From NCBI GenBank assembly GCA_000004985.1, contig GG738919.1: 64,000 bases of DNA; one strand, given 5' to 3'. The notes below the pieces were generated by a model. It saw only the letters and a list, made by a program, of their open reading frames with translations, had not been told where the DNA came from and did not search any database. Positions 3,017 through 64,000 of the stretch are shown here, in pieces; positions within the stretch are counted from its first letter, which is position 1, and each line of letters opens with the position of its first letter. A program made the translations under genes and the position numbers. This stretch comes from Naegleria gruberi. Lineage: Eukaryota.

Positions 3017-4290
3017 ATGCCACCTTTCAAACAATTAATCACCGAGCAGTTTCATCGACCTGCTAATCAGAACAACGACAATTGGAGTTTTTTTTCATTG
3101 TTAGAATCGAATATAAATTCATCTTCATATTCGAAATTTGATTTAATGGATACTAATGTTACACTTTCGAATTTGGATCCTATTCCTCAATCGATTGGAG
3201 CAATTACAATATCAAGTACATTTTTAGTATTATTTAATATCTTGATGATTGTTATTGCTTCGTCTTTTATTCGAACTAAAATACGAAAGGAAATGAAACG
3301 AAATCAAATTATAATGGTAGGAATGGTTTTTATTCTATCCATTGTTCAATGTATTGGAATACTTGGGAGGAATATTTATGATATCATTTCCATTATCATT
3401 AATAATCAATATAATACTTTCGTCCAAAATACCTATTCATCTGAATCTCAAGAATTCATTGACACTTTCGAATATCACAATTGCTCGATTACAACCACTC
3501 AAGCAGGCATCAAATTTTCCCATGTTGTAGCCATGCATCTAACAGGTTCAATTGAAGTTCTTTTCATTGTTGGAAATCTCATTACAATGGTTGTAATCAT
3601 GAGCTTTGTAGGACATGTCTTTCTAGAAACTGTCAAGATTGCAGGAAGTTTCGAAGAGGCAAACTCACGACTAACAAAACGACTCATGATTATCCAGAAT
3701 TCATTCACTATTTTTTTCTGCGTTTCATTTGGTTCGATTGTTGTGGCTATTGCAGTGCTTTTCTTTTTCATCAAGATTCACTTTATTGAGGATTATCAGT
3801 TTCTGCTATTTATGATTGGATATATTATTTACTTTTTGCAGATTGTCATTAATTTGGTCATTTCAATGGTAAGTTTAAAGTTTTCATTGGAGAAAAATTT
3901 ATTCGAAATATGAAGATTGTTGCTTTCAAGGTTTTGAAAACAATTAAAACAAGAGCAACTAAGACAAACAAACAACAATCACAAAGACCAATCATTAAGG
4001 TTATTACACTGCAGTTGGCTCTTGTTTTTTCTGCTCTGTCACAAATCATCGCGATCGGTTGTGCCACAGCTTTGGATGACTGGAGTTACATGACACTGTT
4101 CTATAATTTCATCAATTCTGCTGGAATTTTAACATTTGGAATTGTAACTGTTCTATTATATCAGCCAATATTTACAGAATCTGCAAGAGCAGTGAAAGAA
4201 TTGAATAATCAGAGTGAAACTTCTTCTGGAAGGAAAAAATCATTGTTTAAAAAAGCTCAAACAATTCCAACAGAAAATTCTAATGTTTGA
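3017..4290 (+). CDS. Multi-pass (about 7 TM) membrane protein, GPCR-like, join(3017..3868,3916..4290) with a 47-nt intron 3869..3915.
   Basis: The ORF 2966..3913 starts at TTG; the first ATG is at 3017. ATG|GTAAGT donor at 3869. Acceptor GAAG|ATT keeps the frame into ORF 3910..4290, and hydrophobic helices continue across the junction. Confidence 0.5.
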
Positions 4291-4373: not shown

Positions 4374-6104
4374 TTACTTAAGGTCAACTCCTTTATTGGA
4401 GTTTCTACCAACCTTGAACCTGTAAATAACATGGGCAATAATGAAACCGATAGAAATAATAAATAATGCAAAATTGAGAACTCCATAGAAAAGGAATGGA
4501 CCACTTGGTTTCCAATCATCGAATAAATATCCACCAACCTTTGTGGCCACTAAAATACCAGCAGCACCAAAGAGAGTAAAGATACCACTTACGCTACCTC
4601 TGACCTTACTTGGTGATTCAGCAGTGACAAGGATTTGAGAACAAATAATGACACCAATTTCACCAATACCAATCAATGCAATTGGTAAATAGACAAAACC
4701 ACCAGTGACATCAGTGAGGAAAGATAACATGGTATAACCAACACCTGAAATTGCAGAGACAATTGCCATAACAATCAATCTCGACATTTTTCTAACAAAA
4801 TCAGTCTTGAAATCATCCTCTTGTTCAGGTTGTTGTTCAACATCTTGATTCTTCTTTCTTCTAAATCTCAAGTCAGCAAAAATACCAACAAATGGAGCAG
4901 CAATGAGAGCAAAAGTTTGACAAATACCAGAAATAGTACCACCTCTAGCAGTAGCATCTGCCTTGGATGAATCATGAATGTCAATCATTTGTTGAGAGAC
5001 CCACAATGTAATAAAGGTAGTAATGAGAATAGAGTCACCTCTAGCAACGAAACCAGAAATGTAGGCAAGAATGAGAGATGGTCTCTTTGCTGGAGCAACA
5101 AATAAACCTTCCCAAATGATATTTTTGAATCTGATGAAGGATTTCTTAATGTTGAATCTTTCTTCATCATCCTCTTCTTCACAATCACTACTTTCAGCCA
5201 TTTCTCTTCTGGTTGCTTCACGTTCTTGTTTAGAGTCACAAATTGGGAAAATTCTTCCCTTGAAGAAGATCATTAAGGCACACATGGCAATAATACAGAA
5301 GAAGGCCATAATCATAAAGGCAATCATACCTGCTTGACCTGTTGAAATGGTTGGATCAGCACTTTGAATCCATAATGGAATCTTTAAACAAGCCAAAGCA
5401 GAGACAACAGCACCAAGACCAGATGCCAATCCCAACAAACCAGATGCTTTACCTCTATCCTTATTCTTGACATAGTCACCAACAATGGCAGTTAACATAC
5501 TACTTGTACTGGCAGCACCAATAGCAAAAATAATTCTGTAGATTATCAATTGCCAAATAGTTTCAGCAAATGTATAGAGGAACAATCCAATTCCCATAAA
5601 TAAGAAACCAATCATGTACACAAACTTTCTACCTCTCAAAATATCAGTCAGCACGCCCCAAATCAAGCCAAATGCCAAAATGCACAATTCATTGTAAAAC
5701 GACAAGTCACCAGCCAATTTACCTTGATCTTTTCTATTTACAGTACCTCTCAGATAAGCTTCGAAAACATAACTTGACATGGCATTAATAAATACGAACA
5801 TACTAAGCAAAATGACAACCAAAATATAGAAACAAGTAATATGAACCCACGTAATACCAGGTTTCAGTTCAATAAAACCCAAATATCTATCAGTTCGAAT
5901 ACAGCCACACAATAGTTTTGGTTTCTTTTTGGAAGGAGGACCGGTTGGAGAGGAAGGTTCGCTACCTGGTGATTGATAGGCAATATTATTCTGCACTTCT
6001 TGATTGTCATCTGTTTGATTGACAGAGGAAAGGCCAGCAAGAGGAGGAATTATAATTGCAGGTGATGAAGTTGAATCAGCAGTACTTTGATACGAATTTT
6101 CCAT
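4374..6104 (-). CDS. Major facilitator superfamily transporter, 12 predicted TM.
   Basis: MFS loop signature G-x-L-x-D-I-L-R-G-R-K, alternating hydrophobic helices. ATG verified at 6104..6102. Confidence 0.85.
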   Translation of the reverse strand: MENSYQSTADSTSSPAIIIPPLAGLSSVNQTDDNQEVQNNIAYQSPGSEPSSPTGPPSKKKPKLLCGCIRTDRYLGFIELKPGITWVHITCFYILVVILLSMFVFINAMSSYVFEAYLRGTVNRKDQGKLAGDLSFYNELCILAFGLIWGVLTDILRGRKFVYMIGFLFMGIGLFLYTFAETIWQLIIYRIIFAIGAASTSSMLTAIVGDYVKNKDRGKASGLLGLASGLGAVVSALACLKIPLWIQSADPTISTGQAGMIAFMIMAFFCIIAMCALMIFFKGRIFPICDSKQEREATRREMAESSDCEEEDDEERFNIKKSFIRFKNIIWEGLFVAPAKRPSLILAYISGFVARGDSILITTFITLWVSQQMIDIHDSSKADATARGGTISGICQTFALIAAPFVGIFADLRFRRKKNQDVEQQPEQEDDFKTDFVRKMSRLIVMAIVSAISGVGYTMLSFLTDVTGGFVYLPIALIGIGEIGVIICSQILVTAESPSKVRGSVSGIFTLFGAAGILVATKVGGYLFDDWKPSGPFLFYGVLNFALFIISIGFIIAHVIYRFKVGRNSNKGVDLK

Positions 6105-7919: not shown

Positions 7920-8000
7920 GCAGACTTGGCCGAGTGGTTAAGGCGACAGACTTGAAATCTGTTGGGGAAACCTTCGTAGGTTCGAATCCTGCAGTCTGCG
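7920..8000 (+). tRNA. tRNA-Ser (anticodon TGA), class II with a long variable arm.
   Basis: Acceptor GCAGACT/AGTCTGC is perfect. D-loop GGCCGAGTGGTTAAGGC, anticodon loop CTTGAAA, T-arm GTAGGTTCGAATCCTGC. A T-run follows. Confidence 0.85.
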
Positions 8001-12279: not shown

Positions 12280-12432
12280 GGTCGTTGGTCTAGAGGAATG
12301 CAATTTTAGAAAAGGTAAAATGATTCTCCCATGCCGGGAATTGAACCCGGACCTCCTGGGTGAAAGCCAGGTATCCTAGCCATTGGACTACACGGGAATC
12401 TTATTCATAATGAAAATATTCCCTTAATGAAT
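12280..12432 (-). repeat. tRNA-Glu repeat unit including conserved flanks (about 35 nt upstream, about 25 nt downstream), copy 1.
   Basis: Upstream flank ..GGAATATTTTCATTATGAATAAGAT and downstream flank GAGAATCATTTTACCTTTTCTAA are shared with the other two copies. Confidence 0.7.
12326..12397 (-). tRNA. tRNA-Glu (anticodon TTC), copy 1 of 3.
   Basis: Reverse complement is TCCCGTGTAGTCCAATGGCTAGGATACCTGGCTTTCACCCAGGAGGTCCGGGTTCAATTCCCGGCATGGGAG, identical to the copies at 15889 and 32740. Confidence 0.9.
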
Positions 12433-15854: not shown

Positions 15855-15985
15855 TTCATGGAAGGAATATTTTCATAATGAACAAGATTCCCGTGTAGTC
15901 CAATGGCTAGGATACCTGGCTTTCACCCAGGAGGTCCGGGTTCAATTCCCGGCATGGGAGAATCATTTTTACCTTTTCCAACTAA
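15855..15985 (+). repeat. tRNA-Glu repeat unit with conserved flanks, copy 2. Inverted relative to copy 1, so the pair brackets the kinase gene.
   Basis: GGAATATTTTCATAATGAACAAGAT upstream, GAGAATCATTTTTACCTTTTCCAA downstream. Confidence 0.7.
15889..15960 (+). tRNA. tRNA-Glu (TTC), copy 2.
   Basis: Identical 72-nt tRNA. Acceptor TCCCGTG/CATGGGA with a G-T wobble, anticodon loop CTTTCAC. Downstream flank has a TTTTT run. Confidence 0.9.
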
Positions 15986-29094: not shown

Positions 29095-30393
29095 ATGGTT
29101 GCCATCATTAATACGCCAACAATAGACGAAACGAAGAATAATTTCAATAATTCTTCATCAGTAGCAGCTGCCTCAGCTATTACAACATATTTCAACAATA
29201 ATAATATTGGAAACGTTTCGAATAACATGTTAGTGCCCAACAAAACAACAAAACATTGAATTAGTAACGGCTTCACAAGATGATAGTATTAATAACAATT
29301 CTTTACAAACAATAACACCGCTCTATCAACAACATGGAAATTCTTCGATAGGTGTGGAAAGTAACGTTTCGTCTACTTTAGTTCAACCAATTCAACAAGA
29401 AAGCGAGAGTATCCAACAAATGATTTCGAATTTTAAATTGCGCCCATTAAGAGTTTACCAACAAGAACAAGAAAGAATGGAAAATCGTCAAGTTTCGTCA
29501 CATGCTCCTCAAAATTCCTCATCGTCGAGCTCTAGATTACAATTAGTTTCGCCTTCCCCTAATAATAGCCTTCTAATGTTCCTTCACTTACAAATTCTCC
29601 GCAAGTTAATAGTATTTCAACTGTTATCATTCCATCTAATAATCATCAAACTCTAGTTTCGAATAATTCCTCAACAAATCAAGCTAATGAAAATCCAATT
29701 CAAGTAGTTTATAGTGAAACAAATCAGCAACAATTTGATGATTCACAAGGATTGTTGGGTTCTTTTGATATTTCCTCAGATTCTACTAGTGGAAAGAATG
29801 GTCAATCGAATATCAAGTCATTTGTCAAAGCTGCCTTATTAATTTTCCACATTATTTGTCAAATTGTAATGAGTGGCATGATTGGTATTTCATTCATTCT
29901 ATACGATTGGAAAACCATGATCATTTTCACTCCCAAAATTGTCATTGGATTTCTAATAATTTTGGCAGTTTACAAAAAGAAGAATGGTTTCTTACATTTT
30001 CTATTAGGAAGCATCCTTTTAGATTTGATTTACACCACCATTTTGGTTGGTCTGAGGTTTTATGTAACAGCCAGACCTGGACAAGTTACTTTTCTGACAC
30101 AGGAATCGAATAATGCATTTACTGAACTTTCTAAGAATCCAATAGAGTTAGCACCAAATCATGTGCTTGTCCACACTCCAGAATGGACACACTCAAGTGT
30201 TGAATGGATTAAGGCAGCTACCCCAATTCCAGAATCACCAAATGAGCACACTGATATGCAAGGAACAAGTGCTGCAACTGAAGCTCAAAGGAAAAAGCTT
30301 CCTGGCTTGTGGTTTCAATTCGGAATTCAAATTATGGGCGGATTTATTGTTCTCCTGACAATAATATGGACACTCATAGTTGGTCAACAGTAA
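29095..30393 (+). pseudogene. N/S/Q-rich low-complexity protein with a C-terminal 4-TM domain. The reading frame is interrupted by two compensating 1-nt frameshifts (near 29235-29256 and 29560-29575). A pseudogene, or sequence errors in homopolymer runs.
   Basis: Three protein-like segments: frame 1 from ATG 29095 to TGA 29257, frame 2 from 29234 to 29656, frame 1 from 29569 to 30393. The rare GTT-TCG (Val-Ser) codon pair recurs in frame in all three segments. The ORF 29752..30393 has no ATG before residue 40. Confidence 0.45.
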
Positions 30394-32705: not shown

Positions 32706-32836
32706 TTTATGAAAGGAATATTTTCATGATGAATAAGATTCCCGTGTAGTCCAATGGCTAGGATACCTGGCTTTCACCCAGGAGGTCCGGGTTCAATTCC
32801 CGGCATGGGAGAATCATTTTACCTTTTCTAAAAATA
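32706..32836 (+). repeat. tRNA-Glu repeat unit with conserved flanks, copy 3.
   Basis: Same flank conservation as copies 1 and 2. Confidence 0.7.
32740..32811 (+). tRNA. tRNA-Glu (TTC), copy 3.
   Basis: Identical 72-nt sequence with the same conserved flanks (GGAATATTTTCATGATGAATAAGAT / GAGAATCATTTTACCTTTTCTAA). Confidence 0.9.
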
Positions 32837-33213: not shown

Positions 33214-33287
33214 GCCGTCATAGCTCAGTTGGATAGAGCACAGGACTTCTAATCCTGGGGTCGTGGGTTCGAGCCCCATTGTCGGTA
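33214..33287 (+). tRNA. tRNA-Arg (anticodon TCT).
   Basis: GCCGTCATAGCTCAGTTGGATAGAGCACAGGACTTCTAATCCTGGGGTCGTGGGTTCGAGCCCCATTGTCGGTA. Anticodon loop CTTCTAA, T-arm GTGGGTTCGAGCCCCAT. One T-T mismatch and one G-T in the acceptor stem. A T-run terminator follows. Confidence 0.7.
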
Positions 33288-33486: not shown

Positions 33487-35329
33487 ATGCACACCACAGC
33501 TGTTTTCGTTCTCTTTCTAATCCTCTCGGTAATTGTTTCGTTTAACACGCAAGGAGTTTCTTCACTCGTTACTCCAAAGCAATCCTATTTCTTGTGGCCA
33601 AACACTACCACAGGTGATGCAACAGTCTTTTTCAAGGTAAGATGATTTTTTCATTCGCTCACAAATATTATTGGAAATATTTAGGATGGCAGTTCGAAAC
33701 CAATTGTCACTTTATGGGTAGGTTACGCTGCCTATGATGATATTGCAGGAGTAAAAACAAGTATTGCCAACATTATCTCTTCAGGTTCCATTCCATACAT
33801 GTAAGTATTTAATTCAATACACTTTACAAGTTTATTAACTATTTAACACAGCCAATCTTACAGTTTTGGTGATAATGGACTTCGTGGGAATTACAATCTC
33901 TCCGTTGAATTTGATAAACAAGTTGCCATTGCCCTTGGATCAAATTTTGCCTTTGTCAACTTGGAAACTGAATGGGATGTCGAAGAAGTTTTGACACTTT
34001 TCCAAACAGCTGAAGGAACTCAATGTTTGAAAGATAGAGTCAACATGTTCAGAACCTATGCTCCTAATACTATCGTTGTGAGCTCTCCTGGATTATGGAA
34101 GTCAACCAGTAGTTATACTTTCTTTTCTTCAATTGATGCTACGTTGAATGCTCGTGCCATTTTGACACATATTGTCAATATTGGAAACACAACATGTTCT
34201 TTGAAATATGATGGTAGTTATTGGACAAGTGGAGCAAATTCATTGAGTGATGCTCTTGTTTTATTGGACGATACCATTACTTCTGATTTGCAAAAGATGA
34301 ATGATGCTTGGGGAACAGTTTCACCAATGGAATGGATTATTGCTGACTCTGGAGTGACTTCATGTGGTTGGGGAGAAAGTGGACAAGCAACAATTTTGAA
34401 TATTCTTGTGAAGGTAAGTTTACAATTTTTTTCACATTGTAATCAAAATTGATTTTCAAAAAAATTTCAATGAACAGAATCTTGATTGTTTATATAAAGG
34501 AGGTTTCAGAGGATTCATCCTACGTAACTCTGGTCCATCCCTCTCTGAACGTGCCATGGGTATCAATAACGAAGGCATGTTCACTTACACAACTTCACCT
34601 TCCTCAGTTACTGTCTTGAACACTGGATTGACAAGAGCAAGGCAATTATTTGTCAATAATCAAACACCTAATTGTGTCCAAGCTGATACTGTCTATACTG
34701 TTACCATTAATTCAAATTCTAATGCTTATTGGGCTCAGATTAGTGTCCTTCCATATTCAACCATTCAAAATGTTACCTTTACATGTTCTGGAATTAGTTC
34801 ATTGTTGGCTACCTCCGCATGGTCTAGTTCTGTCTTTGTAAAGAGTTTGTCTCCAGGGTGTCCATTGGATTCTTCCATAACTGTTACTATAAACGGAAAT
34901 GCCAAAGTGTCAATGAATTTTACAGTGGGAACAAGCGCCACTTCTGCATCATCCTCATCAAATGGAGGAAGTAGTTCTGGAAATAACACAAATACCAATA
35001 ATGGAACTGTCATTAATCCAAGCAATGGAAATAACACCAACACCAATAATGGAACTAGCTCAAATAATGGAACAGTCATTACTCCTACCACTTCCACTGT
35101 AAAACCTACCACCTCAACAGTCGTACCAAAGACTTCATCAACCAATAGTGGAAGTTCCTCATCCAACTCAACCACAAATCCAACAAGCTCAGGAAATTCC
35201 AATAGAAATGGAACTGTAATAAGCTCTGCCAATTCATTCAAGAGTTCCACTAGTGCTCTATTCACTCTCTGTCTACTCTCTTTCCTATTCTTGTTAGACT
35301 TTTCAAAGTTGATATGTGTTAACAATTAA
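33487..35329 (+). CDS. Secreted, probably GPI-anchored Ser/Thr/Asn-rich surface glycoprotein, join(33487..33636,33685..33800,33852..34413,34478..35329). Three introns of 48, 51 and 64 nt.
   Basis: Signal peptide MHTTAVFVLFLILSVIVSF. Donors GTAAGA/GTAAGT/GTAAGT and acceptors TTTAG/CACAG/AACAG keep ORFs 33961..34452 and 34556..35329 in frame. S/T/N-rich stalk (NGTVINPSNGNNTNTNNGTSS...) and a hydrophobic C-terminus typical of a GPI signal. Confidence 0.6.
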
Positions 35330-48275: not shown

Positions 48276-49280
48276 ATGGGTATGTTCCACAGTACGAGTG
48301 GAAAGTGGGGTTATAATCTGCACCAGAAGAAAACTTCCTATGAGTTGAGCAAGGAAGTGGCCATTCAATTGTTGAAGGAAGAACAACGTCTTCGGAGATT
48401 GTCCTCTACTCAACAGTCATACACGGAAGCTGATACGAATTTTAGAATGCTCGAGAATATTACCTATGATTTGCAAGAGAAGGCTTTGCAGAATGTATTG
48501 GGCATTGATCATTCGGATCCAATGTGGCATGAAGCATTGATTGCCTTTAGAAATTTGAGAGCAATTTATCAAAATGATCCTGATGTGAATCAATTAACAG
48601 ATTATTTCAAGTATGACATGTCTAGAGATTTCTTTGTTCAAAAGGTTAATTTGGAAACTATCAAGATTGTAGACTTGCTTGGTTATTATGATTTTGAGAA
48701 GGAGATTAATAATTTTGATCAAATGCCTAGCTCTGAAGAATTAGTTGCAAATAATACGAAAACATTGGCTCAATTTTTAACAGAAAGAAATACCAATAAC
48801 TTACCAGTTGCAATTATTGGAAGCTCATACTCCTGACCACCGTTTAGACAACACCAGCAATATCTCTTTGAAAGTATCTTCCAAGAATTCAAAGAGAAGG
48901 TGTTTGTCATTACCATTTATATTAAGGAAGCCCACGCTTGTGACCAATGGAAATTAGGAAACAGAATTAATATCAAACAACATCAAACAAGTGAAGATAG
49001 AGTAGATGCCACTAGATTAATGATGAAGGAAATGAATTTCAGAATTCCAACCATTGTCGATTCTATTGAGAATGGTTATGAGGAAGCTTTTGCAGTTTGG
49101 CCTGAAAAGTTTGTCATTATGAACAATAATGGAATAGTCGAGTATCAATCCAAACCAGAAACATATGGACATTCTCCAACAAAATTCCGTGAATTGATTG
49201 AACTTTATTTGAGTCGTACTAATCCTCCTTCTGATAAGGCTAGTACAACTACTCCTTCTGATCTTGGTCAAGTTTTGTAA
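48276..49280 (+). CDS. Iodothyronine-deiodinase-like selenoprotein (thioredoxin fold), 334 aa. The in-frame TGA at 48834-48836 is a selenocysteine codon.
   Basis: ORFs 48276..48836 and 48900..49280 share one frame and are separated only by the TGA. ..PVAIIGSSYS-U-PPF.. then ..VFVITIYIKEAHACDQW.. matches the deiodinase active site (NFGSCT-U-PPF ... YIEEAHxxDGW). Confidence 0.7.
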
Positions 49281-49288
49281 CTTGCATG

Positions 49289-49364
49289 CTTGTTAGAGTG
49301 TGTGACATTGACTCAAACAAATCACACGAATGTGAATCCAAGTCAATTGAAATTCTCTTACAAC
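49289..49364 (+). promoter_or_regulatory. Candidate type-II SECIS element in the 3'UTR of the deiodinase-like gene.
   Basis: Helix I CTTGTTAGAG / CTCTTACAA. Quartet (G)UGAC opposite UGAA. Helix II ATTGACT / AGTCAAT. Unpaired AAA at 49315-17. Helix III TCACA-cgaa-TGTGA. Non-canonical G instead of A before the UGA. Confidence 0.4.
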
Positions 49365-49481
49365 ATCCATTTACTAACCTTGTGTCAAGAAATAAATGTA
49401 CATTTGATAATATTTATTTAACATTGAGGATTATTTACATTATGTATTTTGTTTATACTACTAGAATAAAGATTTCAATCT

Positions 49482-49727
49482 TTAATTTTGAGATTTGGAA
49501 TCCTTATCTGGTTTTCTATATTGTTGTTCGAAAGATTTAATCTTATTCCACACTTGCTCAGTTGACCATTTATTTCCTTCTTCCTTTTCTTCACTTGATT
49601 TATTCAATTCCTCTTCTTTATGATTTGTTGAACAAGATGAGGGTTTCACATCTTCTACAAATTTCTCAACATCATACTTGTGGTAAATGTACATTCCAGA
49701 TGCAACTCCTGCCATAAAACTGAACAT
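49482..49727 (-). CDS. Small (81 aa) protein with an N-terminal hydrophobic segment, hypothetical.
   Basis: ATG at 49727. MFSFMAGVASGMYIYHKY then a charged tail. The ORF track starts at an upstream TTG. Confidence 0.35.
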   Translation of the reverse strand: MFSFMAGVASGMYIYHKYDVEKFVEDVKPSSCSTNHKEEELNKSSEEKEEGNKWSTEQVWNKIKSFEQQYRKPDKDSKSQN

Positions 49728-50512
49728 TTTCAATATGATGTTTTGTTGTTGTTATTAAATTTAACTTGTATTTGTTTTTTTTTGTTGAGATTATTGGAAT
49801 ATTCAAGTTTACTCTATTTATAGTCAACTTTGTAAAATTGATTGAATAAAAAGAAATATTGTCAAGTTGATGATTCAAATCAAAATGGTTGTTGTTTGTT
49901 TGTCTGTTCACTAGTACATGTAGTTGATTGAATAATTTTAGGAACATGTGTTTTGATTAAATGTTTTTTTGATTATAGCATTTAACCATTTTCAAATAAT
50001 ATATATTGTTGGATTTTTGCAACTTTGAAGAAAGATTGCAAATATTTAACCAATGAGAAACAGTACATGAGCAGGACACTTGACAATTATCATGAATTTA
50101 AGTTATGTTTAAATGATTGTAAAATTTCAGAATTATTCATTCAATTAGGGTTTAATATGTTTGTTTTAGAATTGTGCATGATGTGAACTCATGTCTCCCA
50201 ATAAACACCTCTGAAAGTTTATTCTAGTAAGTAAACATGAATTTGGAAGCAACAAAATGGTTTCGTATACTTTTTATTCCGCCACTTTTTTGTCATTTCA
50301 ATGATAATGAAAGTAAACTGCACATTGACAAAGATTTGGTACATTAATGTATGGTAATTTCGAGTTTCCATAAATGTATTTTTCAAAACCGAAAGTTGAT
50401 TGGAGAGATAATATTGAAACCTAACAAAATACAAAACTAGCAATTTTTAAGAACGCAGTCATCGTATTGAGATACGTAGTAGGACTAAAAAGATTAGAAA
50501 AAACATCTCAAC

Positions 50513-51070
50513 ATGTATTCGAATGCAAACTACTGTCGTGTCACTATCAGACAAGATGTACCTGCTTCATCTTACAATGACAATTGGCAACCATGTATAC
50601 CAGATCCAGTTATTGTTCCACAACAAAGAAATCAACAATACTTGGTTTCTACAAGTGCTGCTAATGGACTTTCGAATAATGATGAGTTTCTTTCAATGTT
50701 TGCAACACTTCAACTTGATTCACAAGAGAAATTAATTAGATTGTATACCTTGATCTTTCAATTACAACAACAAGCAAACATTGCTACTAGTCCTGCTTAT
50801 CAACAAGATAAAGTTTCTACAGACGAAACCATTCCTCCAGTTTCTTCCATTTCACAAAACCCCCAAACAAATGAAAGCAGCACCAGCACCTTCTCCTCAT
50901 GCTTTACAACATCCACCTCTCCAATCATCCAACATTCCAATCAAGTTTCCTCCAAAATCACCAAGCCATCCAAAATGAAAAACCAAAACCCTCAAAAACT
51001 CTCAAAACCACAAAAATCTCAAAAACCAGAAAAATACACAGAATTGTGTTCTTCATTTCGATCTATTTAA
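50513..51070 (+). CDS. Hypothetical S/T/Q-rich low-complexity protein.
   Basis: ATG at 50513. An overlapping downstream ORF in another frame (50899..51186) carries an AT-hook KRKRGRPRKG. Confidence 0.35.
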   Translation: MYSNANYCRVTIRQDVPASSYNDNWQPCIPDPVIVPQQRNQQYLVSTSAANGLSNNDEFLSMFATLQLDSQEKLIRLYTLIFQLQQQANIATSPAYQQDKVSTDETIPPVSSISQNPQTNESSTSTFSSCFTTSTSPIIQHSNQVSSKITKPSKMKNQNPQKLSKPQKSQKPEKYTELCSSFRSI

Positions 51071-51238
51071 AGTTCGAGATGAAAACGATTGAATCCTATC
51101 AGAGAGAATTGGACTTGAAGAATAGTCAACCAAAGAGAAAAAGGGGAAGACCAAGAAAGGGATTTTATCAAGATGAAAGGGAGTGATGTTTTCCTGAAAG
51201 TTTAGGGCAATAAAAAAAAATTTATTCGAAACTTATTC

Positions 51239-54557: not shown

Positions 54558-54628
54558 GCGTCGATGGTATAGTGGTAGAATACGGCGTTGCCATCGCCGT
54601 GACCCGGGTTCAATTCCCGGTCGACGCA
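54558..54628 (+). tRNA. tRNA-Gly (anticodon GCC).
   Basis: GCGTCGATGGTATAGTGGTAGAATACGGCGTTGCCATCGCCGTGACCCGGGTTCAATTCCCGGTCGACGCA. Perfect acceptor stem GCGTCGA/TCGACGC, anticodon loop TTGCCAT. Confidence 0.9.
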
Positions 54629-55867: not shown

Positions 55868-56946
55868 TTATGGCTTTAAGCAACAGGTTGGAATTTGGAA
55901 AGTAACTTGTTTGACTTCAACTTGACCAATTGAGCTTTCCTTAAATTCACCATAATGAAATTCTCTCTTATTTGGAAATTGGACGAAATGATTCGAAAGC
56001 CAAGCACTTTCCTCTATGGCAGAAGCAACATTTCCACTAACACTTGTTGGCTTTCCACTCTCAAACTCCAACTTGTTATCAAACTTGTAACAAGTTGGAT
56101 AACCTTCAATACTACCTTTATAGGTAATGACATTTCCGTAATCCTCTTCGGTCAACTCTGAATTCTTGAGTTTGAATAAACGATAGGTAATACTAAAGAA
56201 TTTTGCATTTCCAACAATTAATTTTGCATATCTGGATTGGAAGCAACAATTTCAACACGGTTGACTTCTCTAATAACATCAAAACCAATCTTTCTGCAAG
56301 TATTCAAGAAATCATTGACATAGTAAACAGTTCCAATACATGAACCAAGTATGGAAAGTTTCTCACGAGCTGCTGGATGAATCTTCCTGTCAGAATAAAT
56401 GTCAGAAAAGACAAATTCACCGCCAAACTTTAAAACTTTGTAAACTTGACGAAGGACTTGTTCTTTCTTAGGGGACAAGTTGATGACACAATTGGAAGTG
56501 ATCAAATCGATGGATTCACTGGTAACACCTGGAATTTGATCCAATTCTTCAATTAGACCTTCATGGAATTCAATCTTGGCAATATTCATATTTGCATTCT
56601 TGATTGACTCGATGAATTTTGGAGTAAACTCTCTAGCTTGCTCCACTTGACTCTTGGTCATGTCCACGCCAATAACCTTTCCTTGCTCACCAACAATGAT
56701 CGATGCAAGAAAAACATCCCTTCCAATGCCACTTCCCAAATCAAGAACTGTCAATCCCTTAATACCAAGTGGGACAGCTGAACCACAACCATAAAACTTT
56801 TCATGAACCTCAGCTGGAATCAATCCAAGATACTTTTGAATTAACAAGTGAGGTTTTGAAGCTAGGAAACAACTATTGGAAATCAAAGCTTCATTACTTT
56901 GCTTGTTGGAGTAGTGTTCTTTAATAGAGTCATAGATGGATTCCAT
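55868..56946 (-). CDS. AS3MT: Arsenite (As-III) S-adenosylmethionine methyltransferase. The reading frame is broken by a 1-nt shift in an A4 run near 56222-56225; the C-terminal third continues in ORF 55868..56155.
   Basis: YGCGSAVPLGIKGLTVLDLGSGIGRDVFLASIIVGEQGKVIGVDMTKSQVEQAR (SAM-binding). SNCVINL..KVLKFGGEFVFSDIY. The downstream frame gives GNAKFFSITYRLFK, matching human AS3MT GDCRFVSATFRLFK. Confidence 0.7.
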
Positions 56947-57368: not shown

Positions 57369-58261
57369 TTATTTCCTCTTCTTCTTGTGAATGGCTTCTA
57401 CGAGGGCCATGAAAGCATCACTATTTAAATGTTGTTAAATATTATATTTGAAGAAAATACTTACTTGACATTTTGTCCTGATTTGGCACTAACCTCAAAA
57501 ACTATTTCACCACAACATATTAGATCTATTTCCATAATTATTATAAAACTAAATACATACCTCTATCCACTACACATGAAGTATTTTTACAGAATGCATT
57601 GGCTTCTTCAGTTTTAACCATTCTTTCATCAGCCAAGTCAGCCTTATTACCAACAAGCAATACTGTAATATCATCTTGAGGTGAAGTATTCTTTTCAATA
57701 TTAGTAATCCACTTTTGAACATTTTGGAATGATTCAGAATCTGTCATGTCATAAACAACCAACACTCCAGCACATCCACGATAATAAGTAGCTTGAATAG
57801 TATTATACCTTTCCTGAAAGAAATGTGTCAGAGAAATTCTTTCAAAAACTTACTTGACCTGCTGTATCCCAAATTTGTAACTTTATCATTTGATTGTCAA
57901 TTGTAACATCCTTCTTTTTAAAATCAACACCAATAGTTGCAATATAATTTTCCTGGAATGATCCATCAACCCACTTGATTGCCAAAGAAGTTTTTCCGAC
58001 GCCAGCATCACCTATTGTTGTTATTATTTTCCAATATTTAATTCATTAATCCAATATTATTGTCATTCCAATAATATTATTATTATTATTATTACACAGT
58101 TGATGATGATGATCAGCAACATCAACACACTTACCTAACAGAAGAATTTTGTAGGTAACTTTTTGCTCCACCACTTCACCATGTCCATGAACATTCAACT
58201 TGTTATTTCGGGATGAACCTGATGATGATGATGAATTTGATTTTGAATTATTACAACCCAT
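57369..58261 (-). CDS. Rab-family small GTPase with an N-terminal MGC acylation motif and no C-terminal Cys (ARA6-like), join(57369..57420,57465..57501,57561..57813,57854..58011,58135..58261). Four introns of 123, 40, 59 and 44 nt.
   Basis: Spliced product: MGCNNSKS...YKILLLGDAGVGKTSL...TIGVDF...IWDTAGQERY...YYRG...LLVGNKADL...FEVSAK...DAFMALVEAIHKKKRK*. All donors are GTAAGT/GTATGT and acceptors AATAG/TTCAG. Confidence 0.7.
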
Positions 58262-58787
58262 TTTCTCCTCTTTTATATTAATTCCAAATCCGCAATCTCG
58301 CTCTATTTAATAATAATAATTTAATAAATCAAACTCTAATGATCAAAGACGGTTTGTTCCTTTGTTCTCCTTTATTTTTTCCAACAACTCTGAAGAGGTT
58401 AAAGTTTGTTGCTTTTTTTGTTGTTGTTCCTTCTTCTCATCCATCATCAATCACAAAACAAGCGTAATTTGATGATGAGGAAGGGAAAAAGCAAATGGAA
58501 ATCGAAAATCAAGAAAGATATTATTGATTTGATTGTTAGTAAGATTGCTGTGCCGTGTTGATGTTGGTGATCGAAGTATTTTTCTATTTGAGTTGAGAAT
58601 GTAAATGCTCTTACGGAGAAAAAAACCTTAATTGGTTGGATCACTCAGACTAAAGAGTGAAATAATGAATTGTTTGGATCAATTTCAAAACTTACGAATT
58701 AATTTGCTTCAATTCTTCATCATCAAAAAAAGCTGAAAATGAATTAAAATTTTAAAAATTAATTTTTTCATCTCAAAATTTAAAAAA

Positions 58788-59546
58788 ATGGCACCAAAGA
58801 AAAAACCAATTAACAAGAAACCAGAAAGACCAGACAGAAACAAGCAAACAAAGCTTGAAGTCCTTGCTGAAGATCTTGAAAAACTTGATTTGGAAAACAA
58901 ATTGAGAGAAGAGGAAGAAGATTCTGATGAAGAAGAAGAAATTGTTGTTAGCCGAGTTGAAGCCAAAAAAGTTGATTACTGTGCCGAATGTTCATTCCCA
59001 ATTGAATATTGCGAATTTTCTGATAAATGGCCATTGTGCGAAAAGTGGCTTGAAACTAGATTCCCAGAAAAATTAAAAGAATTAATTGAATTGAGAGAAG
59101 GTGATAAAAACAAGAATAAGAAAATTGATAAAAAAGTCGCCAGAGAAGTCAAGGAAATTGTGGAAGGTACCGAAGAAAAGAGAGTTGCAACCAAATCAAA
59201 TAGAGAATTACTTATTCGTATCGATAAAAGAAGCAAGAGAAAACGTTTGACACTCATTACAGGAATTGAAGCTTTTATGGAGGATGCATTCAGAGGTGAT
59301 GAAAAGTTTTTCAAGGATGTTGTCAAAATTTTCGGAAAGAAATTTGCTTGTGGATGTAGTATTGTGAAAAAACCAGAACTTTCTATTGAAATTCAAGGTA
59401 ATGTTCCTGGCAAAGTTGCCAAGTACTTTACTAAAGAATTGGGTGTTGACATTAATCAAATCTATGTCCTCGAAGATAAGAAAAAGACGAAAGCCTCTGA
59501 TTATGTTTTCGACAGTGATGAAGAGGAAGATGATTCAGATGAATAA
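58788..59546 (+). CDS. DENR: Density-regulated protein (DENR): zinc-binding N-terminal region and a C-terminal SUI1 domain.
   Basis: VDYCAECSFPIEYCEFSDKWPLCEKWL and the SUI1 domain LTLITGIEAFMEDAFRGDEKFFKDVVKIFGKKFACGCSIVKK...IQGNV. ATG at 58788. Confidence 0.85.
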   Translation: MAPKKKPINKKPERPDRNKQTKLEVLAEDLEKLDLENKLREEEEDSDEEEEIVVSRVEAKKVDYCAECSFPIEYCEFSDKWPLCEKWLETRFPEKLKELIELREGDKNKNKKIDKKVAREVKEIVEGTEEKRVATKSNRELLIRIDKRSKRKRLTLITGIEAFMEDAFRGDEKFFKDVVKIFGKKFACGCSIVKKPELSIEIQGNVPGKVAKYFTKELGVDINQIYVLEDKKKTKASDYVFDSDEEEDDSDE

Positions 59547-59710
59547 ACATTTCTATTATCTCAACAACTGTTTCAATTATTATCAAAAATCAATTTAAAA
59601 TACTGATTCAGTACTTCACACAAATTCTTCAGATTCACTATTGAAATAATCAAATCAGGAAAAAAGAAATAAATGATTTGAAAAACTAATAAATTAAATT
59701 TACAAAGAAC

Positions 59711-61004
59711 TTATTGTTGCTTGCATTCTTGTTGGCCAGCAGCAGGTTGTTCACCACCTTCTCCTTGTGGTTGAGTAAGACCAGCTTGGATTTGAGTGAG
59801 CATGTCAGCAACTTCTGGGACAGTTGAGAAATCACCTTCCTTTGGCAAAGCAACGTTCAAGAAGTAATCAACAGCGTTTGGAATAATTCTTTCCTTGAGA
59901 ATGTCTCCGATTTCAGCATCAGCTTCCAACAATTCTTGCAAGATCATGTTTTCTTCATTTTCTTCCTTTTGAATTTCTTCATCGAGATTCTTGAAGAAGT
60001 TGAAGAAAGAGTCCTTTGGTTCCTTAACTTGAATAGTTCTGGTTCTGTTTCCAGACTTGTGCTTTTGCTTCTTGGTGGTAACCTTGACAGTCAAATCCTT
60101 ACCTTCAGCCCAGGTAATTTCAGTACCTTCAGAAGTGGCAATATCTTCACTATCGGCTTCTTCGTAATAGTATGACTTGACGAGTTGAGTGTTGGTGAAG
60201 AATGGATTTTCATTGAATTGGAAGATAATTCTGAAACCTGGATTATGCTTGTAATCAATTTCTTCTTCTTCTTCTTCTTCCTTCTTTTCAGCAGATTCTT
60301 CCTTTGGCTTGGCTGGGAATTCTTCCATGACAACATTCTTCAAGAACTTCAAAGCTTCCAAATCATCTTCTTGGATCAATTCAGCCTTGATTTCAGAGTG
60401 GAGCAAAACCTTGTACCAGAAATCTGGAACACCCTTCAAATCTTCAGTCTTTTCAGTGGTAACTTCGGACAAAGCAACAGTAGACAATTCTTCAGAGGTA
60501 GCTTCAACTTCACCAGTAACAATTTCGTTTCTTCTAATAATAACTGGAGCATAGAGAGCAGCATACTTTTCTCTGAGCTTCAAGTATTCTTCTTCGAATT
60601 GCTTTTCCAAATCAGAGTACTTTTGTTGGAGGTTCTTCAAAACACCAATAACCTTTTGAGTCTTGGCTGGATATTCAGCAAGTTGCTTCTTTTCAATCTT
60701 TTCGAGTTCTTCTGGGGTAGCCTTTCTCATGAGCATTGGGTGCTATTATTATTGTTAGATTAATTGTTGTTGTCAATAGTTATAAAGTACATCAGCAGAG
60801 AGGGAATGTTCAATAATATCAAGTTGTTTCCACATCATCGTCGGTTAAAATTATTATTATTAATAAATTTCATAGATTAACTTCCTCAACATTCTAACCA
60901 GCAAAACTACTTACACCATACATTTCTTCTTCGATATCTTCTTCTTCATCGAAGTCTTCTTCTTCAGCAGGAGCAAAGTTAAAGTTGAACTTTTGTGGAG
61001 GCAT
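59711..61004 (-). CDS. NAP1: Nucleosome assembly protein 1, join(59711..60742,60915..61004) with a 172-nt intron. C-terminal CKQQ CaaX box.
   Basis: Exon 1 MPPQKFNFNFAPAEEEDFDEEEDIEEEMYG|GTAAGT. Acceptor AATAATAG|CAC is in frame with ORF 59711..60736. NAP signatures VIGVLKNLQ..LE..F..EY..LREKY, DFWYKVL, PGFRIIFQFNENPFFTN. Ends ...ECKQQ. Confidence 0.8.
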
Positions 61005-61841: not shown

Positions 61842-62345
61842 TTATTGAAAGGAAGGAACAGGAGCTTGAACTGGTCTCGTTTGTTTTCTCTTCTTGGCAC
61901 CTATTAATACACAACTCGTTGAATTATTGGATTGTTTCAAATGTGATTTTTTGAAATTTTCATCTTGTTGGTGCACAATCGAGACAATTGAACGTTTCCT
62001 TGAGGAATTAATTTCCTTTCCGAAAAGAATTGAATTTTCAGAAAAACAATTATCCAAATCATTAACATGCCCATTCAGTTTCATCATTCCCATTTCCTTC
62101 TTAATGTGTTGGGGTGTAATGAATGGAATTGAATTTCTCATATCCTCATCATTATATTTCTGATCTGCTGCTACTGCTAAATTAGCTCGAGTGGATTTCT
62201 TTGAAGAGGATGAGGATGAGGCTGAGGAGGTGGATTGTTTCAATTTTGGTGAATTATTTTCTTCACTCGATGAAGGAGTTGGCGAGGAAGAAGGTGAATC
62301 TGGTTTATTCCTTTTCGTGGAAGCTCTTCTCTTTCTCGAAGTCAT
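61842..62345 (-). CDS. Hypothetical basic/Ser-rich (nuclear-type) protein, 167 aa. The ORF track extends to 62576, but that upstream part overlaps the AMZ gene's 3' end.
   Basis: Internal ATG at 62345 with an A-rich context. MTSRKRRASTKRNKPDSPSSSPTPSSS... Confidence 0.35.
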   Translation of the reverse strand: MTSRKRRASTKRNKPDSPSSSPTPSSSEENNSPKLKQSTSSASSSSSSKKSTRANLAVAADQKYNDEDMRNSIPFITPQHIKKEMGMMKLNGHVNDLDNCFSENSILFGKEINSSRKRSIVSIVHQQDENFKKSHLKQSNNSTSCVLIGAKKRKQTRPVQAPVPSFQ

Positions 62346-62523
62346 TTTTTTTTGTGTTTTTGTAATGAAATTATTTAATATTTCGAAGTGTGGTGATTGG
62401 ATGGAAAATTGTCCTACCAGTTTTTTTGTGTTTTGCATGATGGGATGATGAATTAATTGTGAATTAATTGGATGTATGAGTACATATTGTGAATTGAAAT
62501 TGTTTTGGAATATTGTGTGTGAA

Positions 62524-63901
62524 TTATTTTCGTTTTTTATTGGGTGAAGAAATAATGTCTTCGTTGAGAATGTCATCAGTGTGGTCGCTTTCCTCGTCCT
62601 CTACTTGGTCCTCCTCATCATCGAGATTGATAATTTCACTCTCGTCATTGTGAGATCTCTTTGTGATATATTGAATCATGTCTTGGGTCCAGCTAGCTGC
62701 TTCCTTCATGTGATAGGACTCGTAGAAGTTTAAAAGTGCTCTATATCTTTGTGCAATGTCGAATCCTATCAAGTATTGGAATTTTCTCAAATCTACAGGA
62801 CACAAATGAATAGATTGTCTAAAATCTTCTTCCAAATGACCAGATCCGTTCATGATACAATCAAAAACTGTGAAATAAAAGTAAAATTGAATTTAAATAT
62901 TAATTCAAATAATTTCCACAATATTATAGTCAATAGTTTTGTAGTGGTAATGGCATGAAATAAAAACGCAAAAGAAAATCAATTATTAAAATTATTAATT
63001 AAATCAACATGTAACAATTCAACTTACAGACACAATGCCCAACTTGAACCATATGAGCAATTTCATGAACTACAATCTTACAACATCTCTCCAAAATAAC
63101 AAGATCATTCTCTGTGAGAGTATCCTCATTGATAATTCCATCCTCTTCCCAAGAGACTGTAATTTTCTTATTTCTCTTCTTTGGAGCTGATTTTCTAAAT
63201 AATGGATCATATCTACACATTGAAAATACTCCAATAGAGTCACCTCCCTGAGCTAGGCCACAAGTGAAACTATCCTTTGCTCCAATATACAAATCATCCA
63301 TTGTCACACCACAAACACATGATACCTCATCCTGTAAATGTTTTCTGAGCTTATTCAATGGTACAATGACATCAGCTGCTCTGAATTGAATTTCATCCTC
63401 TCCAGCTTTATCTTCATCATATTCGTGACATCTTCTCGATTTGATTCTATAAATGATATCCTCAGATTCCACAAAATGACCATGTTTATCCTTCTTTATA
63501 TGTACACTATCCAATATCGTTACATTAATTCCATAATAAAAAGCCTCAACAAATCTCTTCAAATGTGTCAAATACTTTCTCCTATCATTCGAATCTCCAT
63601 CCTTCTCAATCCACAACAGGCCAATATTCTTCTTCAAATGAAAATTCTTTCCAGCAATTTTCTTCCTCAGCCCATTCCACTCATCAAACGTATCGCGATC
63701 CTCCACATATTGTGCCAACCAATCATCAATACTTGTAGGATCCGGAACTGGACAATAAAAATTAGTTTCATCATCGGAAGGCCTTTTCATTTCAAAGTGA
63801 TAGTGTCTCTCATTGTGACAATCGCCAATTGCTTCACGAATCTCCTCTGGAGTGGCGTGTTTGAAACCTTGTGCGAATTTGATCTTCTTTTGTCGTGGCA
63901 T
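62524..63901 (-). CDS. AMZ: Archaemetzincin-type zinc metallopeptidase, join(62524..62867,63028..63901) with a 160-nt intron inside the catalytic motif.
   Basis: HEIAHMVQVGHCV|GTAAGT ... TTTCACAG|FFDCIMNGSGHLEE..HLCPVDLRKFQ reconstructs the archaemetzincin signature HExxHxxGxxHCxxxxCxMxGS..LC..CLRK. ATG at 63901. Confidence 0.8.
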
Positions 63902-64000
63902 TTTTTTTTATTGATTTTGCCGCCAAATTTTCAAGCTTGGTTAATAAAGAATAGAATTTGATTCGAAAAATTTGGTAATATTCAACAATTTTCATTGACT

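What the first reader, a model, noticed from the sequence alone, without database searches (positions are those of the whole stretch)
55868..56946. Arsenite methyltransferase gene broken by a single-base shift in an A4 run
The AS3MT homology continues perfectly from ORF 56218..56946 into ORF 55868..56155 (GNAKFFSITYRLFK versus human GDCRFVSATFRLFK), but only if one base is added in the AAAA run at about 56222-56225. There is no GT/AG pair there, so it is not an intron. Together with the N/S-rich gene this makes several homopolymer-associated frame breaks in 64 kb. That points to either systematic indel errors in the assembly or a genuine tendency to pseudogenize.
Basis: partly seen in the sequence, partly recalled or inferred. 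Interest (0 to 1): 0.5.

Follow-up and report, generated by a model that had tools for sequence, protein, structure and literature searches.

The report
Frameshifted second arsenite methyltransferase gene
An unannotated second arsenic-detoxifying methyltransferase gene of the amoeba Naegleria gruberi is perfect except for one missing A, which is either a base-calling slip in the draft genome or a very recent knockout, so it is an ordinary finding.

Summary
The window is Naegleria gruberi NEG-M, from the JGI Sanger assembly. On the minus strand, 56946..55868 is a full-length arsenite SAM-methyltransferase (ArsM/AS3MT) gene. A premature TAA at 56220..56218 cuts it after codon 242. Adding one base to the A4 run at 56222-56225 gives a 359-aa protein. 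That protein is 86% identical and the same length as an intact ortholog in a related Naegleria, 64-66% identical to N. fowleri and N. lovaniensis ArsM, and matches solved ArsM structures at E 4.5e-75. The DNA alignment to the ortholog has exactly one gap, at this run (A4 versus A5). It is not an intron, and nothing supports programmed frameshifting. The part after the break is still under purifying selection (dN/dS 0.15) and has no other damage, so the lesion is of essentially zero age. It is either a consensus error or a very young, possibly heterozygous, null allele. These tools cannot separate the two. The wider claim of several homopolymer frame breaks is not supported. Most of the other frame switches I examined have canonical intron donors, one is a probable selenocysteine TGA, and the N/S-rich case is ambiguous. 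An intact paralog (D2VS40) exists.

The parts
56221..56946 (-). N-terminal 242 codons of the type-A ArsM gene, from the ATG at 56946. Contains the SAM-binding Rossmann domain and all four conserved cysteines (C26, C54, C153, C203).
   Evidence: ORF listing and translation. Pfam Methyltransf_31 at E 8.3e-27 over residues 63-198. Cysteines invariant or nearly invariant in alignment A2.
56222..56225 (-). A4 run (TTTT on the + strand) where one base is missing relative to the A5 run of the closest ortholog. Affects codon 242 (Lys in the repaired reading).
   Evidence: Single 1-nt gap in the window/L001 alignment. Repair restores a 359-aa ORF.
56218..56220 (-). Premature TAA stop created by the frame shift.
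55868..56224 (-). C-terminal 118 codons plus stop, in the -1 frame: strand beta7 of the methyltransferase fold (FFSITYRLF) and the whole C-terminal domain. There is no Met codon anywhere in this frame segment.
   Evidence: Translation. dN/dS 0.147 against L001, with differences concentrated at third codon positions (45 of 73). 21 invariant family residues retained. AF2 secondary structure.

Best explanation
The locus is a real, unannotated, second ('type A') arsenite S-adenosylmethionine methyltransferase gene of Naegleria gruberi NEG-M. It is orthologous to the only ArsM I found for N. fowleri and N. lovaniensis. It was kept by purifying selection up to the present. The deposited sequence has four A's where five are needed.

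My single most likely reading is that the missing A is a consensus or base-calling error, or a mis-resolved allele, in the draft Sanger assembly. On that reading the organism makes a normal 359-aa enzyme that methylates As(III) using SAM and its four conserved cysteines.

Shown: the identity of the gene, the exact position and the uniqueness of the lesion, the absence of an intron, and the absence of any decay after the break. Inferred: that the lesion is in the sequence record rather than in the DNA.
For: - The window is N. gruberi NEG-M. Twelve window ORFs are exact matches to EFC373xx / XP_00267xxxx proteins.
- Exactly one indel separates the window CDS from the intact 359-aa ortholog across 1,080 nt, even though dS is about 1.
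- After the break, dN/dS is 0.147 (0.069 before it), and 45 of 73 differences are at third codon positions in the repaired frame.
- Lineage-specific replacements, polarised with N. lovaniensis, N. fowleri and Willaertia, are 7 (window) versus 4 (L001) after the break and 6 versus 4 before it. The window lineage shows no acceleration.
- All invariant residues are kept, and the repaired protein gives a confident fold (pLDDT 82.5, pTM 0.83).
- A lesion with no other trace of decay is what every sequencing error looks like, but only the youngest minority of real pseudogenes.
- A one-base length miscall in an A run followed by T's is a typical error of low-quality Sanger read ends (general knowledge).
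- My rough estimate, not a measurement: at 1e-5 to 1e-4 consensus errors per base, a draft of this kind should carry hundreds of such coding frameshifts genome-wide.
Against: - Sanger assemblies do not have systematic homopolymer errors (technology).
- The 64-kb window has no N gaps, which suggests decent local coverage.
- No other convincing error-type frame break was found among the roughly 30 genes of the window.
- No protein model exists for this locus in the public collections.
- An intact paralog makes a real loss tolerable.
- NEG-M is a long-cultured axenic laboratory clone, and Naegleria is described as a heterozygous diploid (PMC9928731). A true null allele is therefore nearly as likely.
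- No independent sequence of this locus from the same species could be found.
Confidence: 0.5

Rival explanations
1. The one-base deletion (A5->A4) is real: a very young loss-of-function allele, heterozygous or fixed, in the NEG-M laboratory clone. The allele would give a 242-aa product lacking strand beta7 and the C-terminal domain, which is presumably misfolded and inactive. Arsenic methylation would be left to the intact type-B paralog D2VS40.
For: - The assembly is Sanger and the window is gap-free.
- An intact, cysteine-complete paralog exists in the same genome.
- The paralog distribution suggests differential loss. Willaertia has both types. For N. fowleri and N. lovaniensis only type A appears among the top 120 hits. 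N. gruberi has type B plus this broken type A.
- A wild N. gruberi-like metagenome strain yields a type-B protein (P0158) but no type-A protein. This is weak evidence because that assembly is fragmentary.
- Slippage in A5 runs is the commonest spontaneous indel (general knowledge).
- The break lies in helix 238-245, between beta6 (224-235) and beta7 (250-258), so the truncation removes part of the core fold.
Against: - There is no second lesion, no rise in lineage-specific replacements and low dN/dS after the break. By rough estimate the mutation would have to fall in about the last few percent of the lineage's history.
- There is no read-level or second-assembly confirmation.
Confidence: 0.42
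2. The four-A sequence is real, and full-length ArsM is still made by -1 ribosomal slippage next to the stop codon (CAA AAU UAA, tRNA re-pairing on AAA) or by transcriptional slippage.
For: - The required shift is -1.
- It occurs in an A-rich stretch directly before a stop codon.
- The downstream frame is perfectly preserved.
Against: - There is no X XXY YYZ heptamer; the site reads G CAA AAU.
- The 133 nt downstream fold no better than shuffles (z -0.39, 58 of 200 shuffles at least as stable).
- Four A's are far too few for polymerase slippage (general knowledge).
- All orthologs (L001, N. lovaniensis, N. fowleri, Willaertia) are in one frame here, so there is no conserved recoding site.
Confidence: 0.02
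3. The two frames are joined by a spliceosomal intron.
For: N. gruberi has short GT-AG introns, several of them in this window.
Against: - The alignment to the intronless ortholog is colinear through the junction.
- The shortest frame-correcting GT-AG pair is 83 nt (GTTGCT...CTCAAG) and would delete 28 residues, including the invariant GNAKFFSITYRLFK block.
- The only shorter option is a 35-nt GC-AG that deletes 12 residues.
- The best donor match near the junction is 4 of 6 to GTAAGT, against 5-6 of 6 at real introns in the window.
Confidence: 0.01
4. This is an old, decaying pseudogene, or two separately expressed half-genes.
For: Two ORFs in different frames and no annotated gene model.
Against: - dN/dS is 0.07-0.15, there is a single lesion and all invariant residues are kept.
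- The downstream frame contains no Met codon at all, so it cannot be translated on its own from an AUG.
Confidence: 0.01

Closest known systems
Arsenite S-adenosylmethionine methyltransferase, ArsM/AS3MT (solved structures: Chlamydomonas 5evj; Cyanidioschyzon CmArsM 4fr0/4kw7; 8xt7)
   Same: - Full-length colinear similarity: E 4.5e-75 to 5evj over residues 4-338.
- Methyltransf_31 SAM-binding domain.
- The four conserved cysteines and the C-terminal domain.
   Different: - The reading frame is interrupted after codon 242 in the deposited sequence.
- The third-cysteine motif is LGSCIG rather than the usual GEC(L/I)(A/G)G.
- There is a one-residue insertion before IVGNAKF that is shared only with the heterolobosean type-A clade.
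Type-A ArsM of other Heterolobosea: N. lovaniensis C9374_011254, N. fowleri FDP41_005737, Willaertia magna ABK040_006629, and the Logan contig SRR32051688_353312 (P0001)
   Same: Orthologs: 86%, 66-67%, 64-65% and 59-60% identity, the same length and the same clade-specific features.
   Different: All of these are intact single ORFs. Only the N. gruberi NEG-M copy has the 1-nt gap.
N. gruberi annotated ArsM, NAEGRDRAFT_51817 / EFC40357 / D2VS40 (type B), the copy used in published ArsM phylogenies (PMC5552862, PMC5398495)
   Same: Same family, same genome, same four cysteines.
   Different: - Only 44-45% identical, and on a different scaffold.
- It has a Cys-rich N-terminal extension and a Cys-rich tail.
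- It is intact and annotated.
- Published analyses place this copy with green algae (PMC5552862) and do not mention the copy studied here.
Programmed ribosomal frameshift sites (viral -1 X XXY YYZ sites; stop-adjacent shifts in Euplotes)
   Same: A frame change next to an A-rich stretch and a stop codon.
   Different: - No slippery heptamer.
- No downstream structure.
- Not conserved in orthologs.
- The direction and context differ from the Euplotes AAA-UAA +1 sites (Euplotes from general knowledge).

Membership tests
ArsM/AS3MT arsenite methyltransferase | Class I SAM-dependent methyltransferase domain with the glycine-rich SAM motif (VLDLGSGxGxD) | tested here: met
   Pfam Methyltransf_31 at E 8.3e-27 over residues 63-198. 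V67 L68 D69 L70 G71 G73 G75 D77 are invariant in A2.
ArsM/AS3MT arsenite methyltransferase | Four conserved cysteines, which bind As(III) and form the regulatory disulfide (human C32/C61/C156/C206; numbering from memory) | tested here: met
   C26, C54 and C153 are invariant and C203 is nearly invariant in the 10-sequence alignment. All four lie before the break.
ArsM/AS3MT arsenite methyltransferase | Full-length colinear similarity to experimentally solved ArsM, including the C-terminal domain | tested here: met
   5evj at E 4.5e-75, query 4-338 against chain 23-353. 4fr0 and 4kw7 at E 9e-63. This holds only after adding the missing base.
ArsM/AS3MT arsenite methyltransferase | Uninterrupted reading frame encoding the whole enzyme | tested here: not met
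   A TAA at 56220..56218 follows codon 242, and the rest is in the -1 frame.
ArsM/AS3MT arsenite methyltransferase | As(III) methylation activity | not testable with these tools
   Requires an enzyme assay or arsenic speciation in vivo.
Programmed -1 ribosomal frameshift site | Slippery heptamer X XXY YYZ in the zero frame | tested here: not met
   The sequence is G CAA AAU UAA.
Programmed -1 ribosomal frameshift site | Stable downstream stimulatory structure | tested here: not met
   MFE -21.6 kcal/mol against a shuffle mean of -20.3, z -0.39.
Programmed -1 ribosomal frameshift site | Frameshift conserved in orthologs | tested here: not met
   L001, N. lovaniensis, N. fowleri and Willaertia are in a single frame.
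Spliceosomal intron (N. gruberi type) | GT-AG boundaries with a GTAAGT-like donor, and removal that leaves the homologous protein intact | tested here: not met
   The shortest frame-correcting GT-AG is 83 nt and deletes 28 conserved residues. The best donor match is 4 of 6. The alignment with the intronless ortholog is colinear.
Established (old) unitary pseudogene | Several disabling lesions and relaxed constraint (dN/dS approaching 1) | tested here: not met
   One lesion only. dN/dS after the break is 0.147. Lineage-specific replacements are 7 versus 4.

The most novel reading that the evidence does not exclude
The four-A sequence is genuine, and NEG-M still produces some full-length ArsM-A by a stop-adjacent -1 ribosomal slip at CAA-AAU-UAA. 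That would be a newly arisen, unconserved recoding event rescuing a fresh frameshift in a heterolobosean. A tamer version is that the deletion is genuine and shows reciprocal paralog loss in progress: N. gruberi losing type A while N. fowleri and N. lovaniensis lost type B.
Probability: 0.02. Interest if true: 0.5.

Novelty: new member of a known kind. Interest (0 to 1): 0.15.

Why it matters
The main value is for annotation. N. gruberi NEG-M carries a second ArsM locus with no protein model in the public collections I searched. It is the ortholog of the only ArsM I found for N. fowleri and N. lovaniensis.

The published ArsM/AS3MT phylogenies I consulted (PMC5552862, PMC5398495) list one N. 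gruberi ArsM, and PMC5552862 argues from it for an algal-related horizontal transfer. I infer that this is the type-B copy, the only one annotated. A second, divergent heterolobosean clade (type A) would need to be added to that picture.

If the deletion is real, it shows a redundant detoxification gene being lost in a laboratory clone. If it is an error, it is one more draft-assembly frameshift to correct. Neither outcome would surprise a specialist.

Tried and rejected
**Independent sequence of the locus**
- An exact look-up of the 242-aa ORF found nothing. The same was true of the repaired 359-aa protein and three intron-bridged models.
- The look-up of encoding contigs does not index the NCBI N. 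gruberi record (one search fails for a protein that one search shows is in the collection). Its negatives say nothing about NCBI annotation.
- The homology search with the repaired protein gave no hit above 86% identity.
- A search with the C-terminal 179 aa returned only 48 candidates and did not relist even P0001. I do not treat it as a reliable negative.
- An exact-pattern scan of JGI metagenome contigs across the junction, allowing A4 or A5, gave 0 hits.
- A search with the neighbouring F-box gene, meant to find a wild-strain contig reaching into ArsM, found only the NEG-M protein itself.
- The 98.2%-identical wild-strain contig L002 stops at window 57900, about 950 nt short of the gene.

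**Alternative mechanisms for crossing the break**
- Intron: all frame-correcting GT/GC-AG pairs were enumerated and rejected.
- Programmed frameshift: the downstream RNA fold is not significant.
- Repeats and promoter or terminator scans around the locus showed nothing relevant.

**Systematic assembly errors**
- Codon-usage scoring of all ORFs and inspection of same-strand frame switches showed introns with strong donors at most of them, a probable Sec codon at one, and one ambiguous orphan-gene case.

**Literature**
- The N. gruberi genome paper is not held in the library. The sequencing technology is taken from PMC9928731.

Full report
**Source of the window.** Twelve ORFs of the window are letter-for-letter identical to GenBank/RefSeq proteins of Naegleria gruberi on a 216,243-bp scaffold. 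Examples are EFC37321, EFC37325, EFC37331, EFC37332, EFC37372, EFC37375 and NAEGRDRAFT_53783. The window has 34% G+C and no N's. The NEG-M genome was sequenced by Sanger technology (PMC9928731, Table 1).

**The observation.**
- On the minus strand an ATG at 56946 opens a 242-codon ORF that ends ...NPDMQN-TAA at 56220..56218.
- The -1 frame is open from 56251 to a stop at 55870..55868.
- Adding one base to the AAAA run at 56225..56222 yields a 359-aa protein.
- The protein has a Methyltransf_31 domain (E 8.3e-27).
- It matches solved arsenite methyltransferases over its whole length and straight through the junction: Chlamydomonas 5evj at E 4.5e-75 over residues 4-338, and Cyanidioschyzon 4fr0/4kw7 at E 9e-63.
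- Its best database relatives are heterolobosean: P0001 (a Logan contig of run SRR32051688, 86% identity, also exactly 359 aa), N. lovaniensis 66%, N. fowleri 64% and Willaertia magna 59%.

The DNA alignment of the window with the P0001 contig (L001) is colinear through the coding region. It has a single 1-nt gap, exactly at the run: window ATGC-AAAATTAATT against L001 ATGCAAAAACTCATT.

**Not an intron.**
- I enumerated every GT/GC...AG pair that would remove the stop and restore the frame.
- The shortest GT-AG is 83 nt and would delete 28 residues, including the GNAKFFSITYRLFK block.
- A 35-nt GC-AG would delete 12 residues.
- No donor near the junction matches the GTAAGT consensus better than 4 of 6.
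- Real introns in this window have donors such as GTAAGT, GTATGT, GTAAGA or GTTAGT (5-6 of 6) and candidate lengths from about 40 nt.
- The ortholog has no intron here.

**Not programmed recoding, as far as sequence can tell.**
- The shift needed is -1, at G CAA AAU UAA. This is not an X XXY YYZ heptamer.
- The 133 nt from the site onward fold no better than shuffled controls (z -0.39).
- All four orthologs read through in one frame.
- The downstream frame contains no Met codon, so it cannot be an independent gene.

**Age of the lesion.** I compared the window with L001 by the Nei-Gojobori method.

| Region | dN/dS | Differences by codon position (1/2/3) |
|---|---|---|
| Before the break | 0.069 | 22 / 11 / 91 |
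| After the break, repaired frame | 0.147 | 17 / 11 / 45 |

- dS is about 1.0 between the two sequences.
- I polarised amino-acid differences with N. lovaniensis, N. fowleri and Willaertia. The window lineage has 7 private replacements after the break against 4 in L001, and 6 against 4 before it. Most are conservative I/V-type changes.
- All 21 post-break residues that are invariant among ten ArsM homologs are retained.
- There is thus no sign of relaxed constraint. The gene was under selection until essentially now.

**Consequence if the sequence is right.** An AlphaFold2 model of the repaired protein is confident (pLDDT 82.5, pTM 0.83). It places the break in a short helix (238-245) between strands 224-235 and 250-258, followed by the C-terminal domain. 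The 242-aa product would keep the SAM site and all four cysteines (C26, C54, C153, C203). It would lose the last strand of the methyltransferase sheet and the whole C-terminal domain. I infer that it would be non-functional.

**Error or mutation?** I could not obtain an independent sequence of this locus.
- The collection holds no protein from this locus, whether truncated, repaired or intron-bridged.
- A junction pattern allowing A4 or A5 has no match in JGI metagenome contigs.
- A wild N. gruberi-like strain exists in ENA metagenome ERZ929261. Its contig L002 is 98.2% identical to window 57900-60062, but it ends about 950 nt before the gene. No neighbouring contig could be reached.

For an artefact:
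- A lesion with no accompanying decay is what every error looks like.
- A5 to A4 miscalls occur at low-quality Sanger read ends.

For a real mutation:
- Sanger drafts do not have systematic homopolymer errors.
- The window is gap-free.
- NEG-M is a long-cultured axenic clone of an organism described as a heterozygous diploid (PMC9928731).
- An intact paralog is present.

I put the two at roughly 0.5 and 0.4 and cannot do better without reads.

**Second copy.** N. gruberi has an intact, annotated ArsM on another scaffold: NAEGRDRAFT_51817 / EFC40357 / D2VS40, 423 aa. It is only 44-45% identical and has all four cysteines. I infer that this is the copy behind the single N. gruberi entry in the published ArsM phylogenies (PMC5552862, PMC5398495). 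Willaertia magna has both types (P0004 type A, P0007 type B). For N. fowleri and N. lovaniensis only type A appears among the top 120 hits. This pattern is compatible with differential paralog loss, but it rests on annotation completeness.

**The wider claim.** I scored all ORFs by codon usage and inspected same-strand frame switches.
- The switches at 3869, 34414-34477, 43688, 43187-43139, 45014, 46999, 51587, 57853-57814 and 58134 have strong canonical donors and are ordinary introns.
- The junctions at 50498-51183 and 61845-62892 had no strong donor. I did not resolve them.
- The apparent break at 48834-48836 is an in-frame TGA in the same frame. Pfam T4_deiodinase (E 8.8e-24) spans it, and it sits at the active-site position (GSSYS-U-PPF). 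It is a probable selenocysteine codon.
- The N/S-rich gene does change frame near 29568. Its database model P0159 joins 29420-29545 to 29569-30390 across a 23-nt 'intron' (GTTTCG...AATAG), which looks like a predictor's patch.
- In that gene the switch must lie after the TAA TAA TAG at 29560-29568, at a CC dinucleotide and not in a long homopolymer. The gene has no informative homologs (3 hits in 1.84 billion representatives), so whether the upstream frame is coding cannot be checked.
- Against the wild-strain contig, the 9 indels in 2.2 kb are all intergenic except one in-frame 3-nt change in a His-repeat.

There is no evidence for systematic homopolymer errors or for a general tendency to pseudogenize.

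**Verdict.** This is a real but ordinary feature. It is an unannotated ArsM paralog with a single-base frame disruption of zero apparent age. The practical outcome is an annotation note and a one-PCR experiment.

Noticed in passing
window 48276-49280 (+), TGA at 48834-48836: A deiodinase-like gene with an in-frame TGA at the active-site position (..IGSSYS-TGA-PPFRQ..). Pfam T4_deiodinase (E 8.8e-24) spans the TGA, so this is a probable selenoprotein. The NCBI model EFC37333 is 445 aa, against 334 codons for the Sec-readthrough ORF, so it is probably mis-modelled around the TGA. No Rfam SECIS match at E<=1 in 49200-49800.
   Followed up: partly
window 29420-30390 (+), junction 29546-29568: The database model for the N/S-rich orphan gene (P0159, 316 aa) joins two frames across a 23-nt GT-AG 'intron'. 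That is shorter than any of the candidate introns with strong donors in the window (40 nt or more). It may be a predictor's patch over a frame break at a CC dinucleotide, or the upstream exon may not be coding at all.
   Followed up: partly
L002 (ENA ERZ929261, run ERR1078381, contig k127_317631) against window 57900-60062: An environmental metagenome contains a strain 98.2% identical to NEG-M. Its 9 indels in 2.2 kb are intergenic apart from one in-frame 3-nt change in a His-repeat of the Rab-like gene. Several other window proteins have ENA or Logan cluster mates at 90% identity or more.
   Followed up: partly
proteins P0002-P0004, P0007, P0013: Heterolobosea carry two divergent ArsM types, about 45% identical. 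Willaertia has both. For N. fowleri and N. lovaniensis only type A appears among the top hits. N. gruberi has an intact type B plus the broken type A. This suggests differential paralog loss, and the published ArsM phylogenies I consulted list only one N. gruberi ArsM, which I infer is type B.
   Followed up: partly
window 12325-12398 (-), 15888-15961 (+), 32739-32812 (+); also 7920-8000, 33214-33287, 54558-54628: Six tRNA genes lie in 64 kb. Three are tRNA-Glu(TTC) copies with identical Rfam scores, scattered between protein genes.
   Followed up: no
window 4377-6104 (-): This 576-aa protein has two separate NCBI accessions on two scaffolds (EFC37367/NAEGRDRAFT_54721 and EFC35832/NAEGRDRAFT_81944). 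The NEG-M assembly therefore contains a duplicated or allelic scaffold for this end of the region.
   Followed up: no
window 63002-63907 and 62527-62892 (-): The ORF ends with HEIAHMVQVGHC and the next exon has HLCPVDLRKF, which looks like an archaemetzincin-type zinc protease motif. This was read by eye only and not tested with any tool.
   Followed up: no
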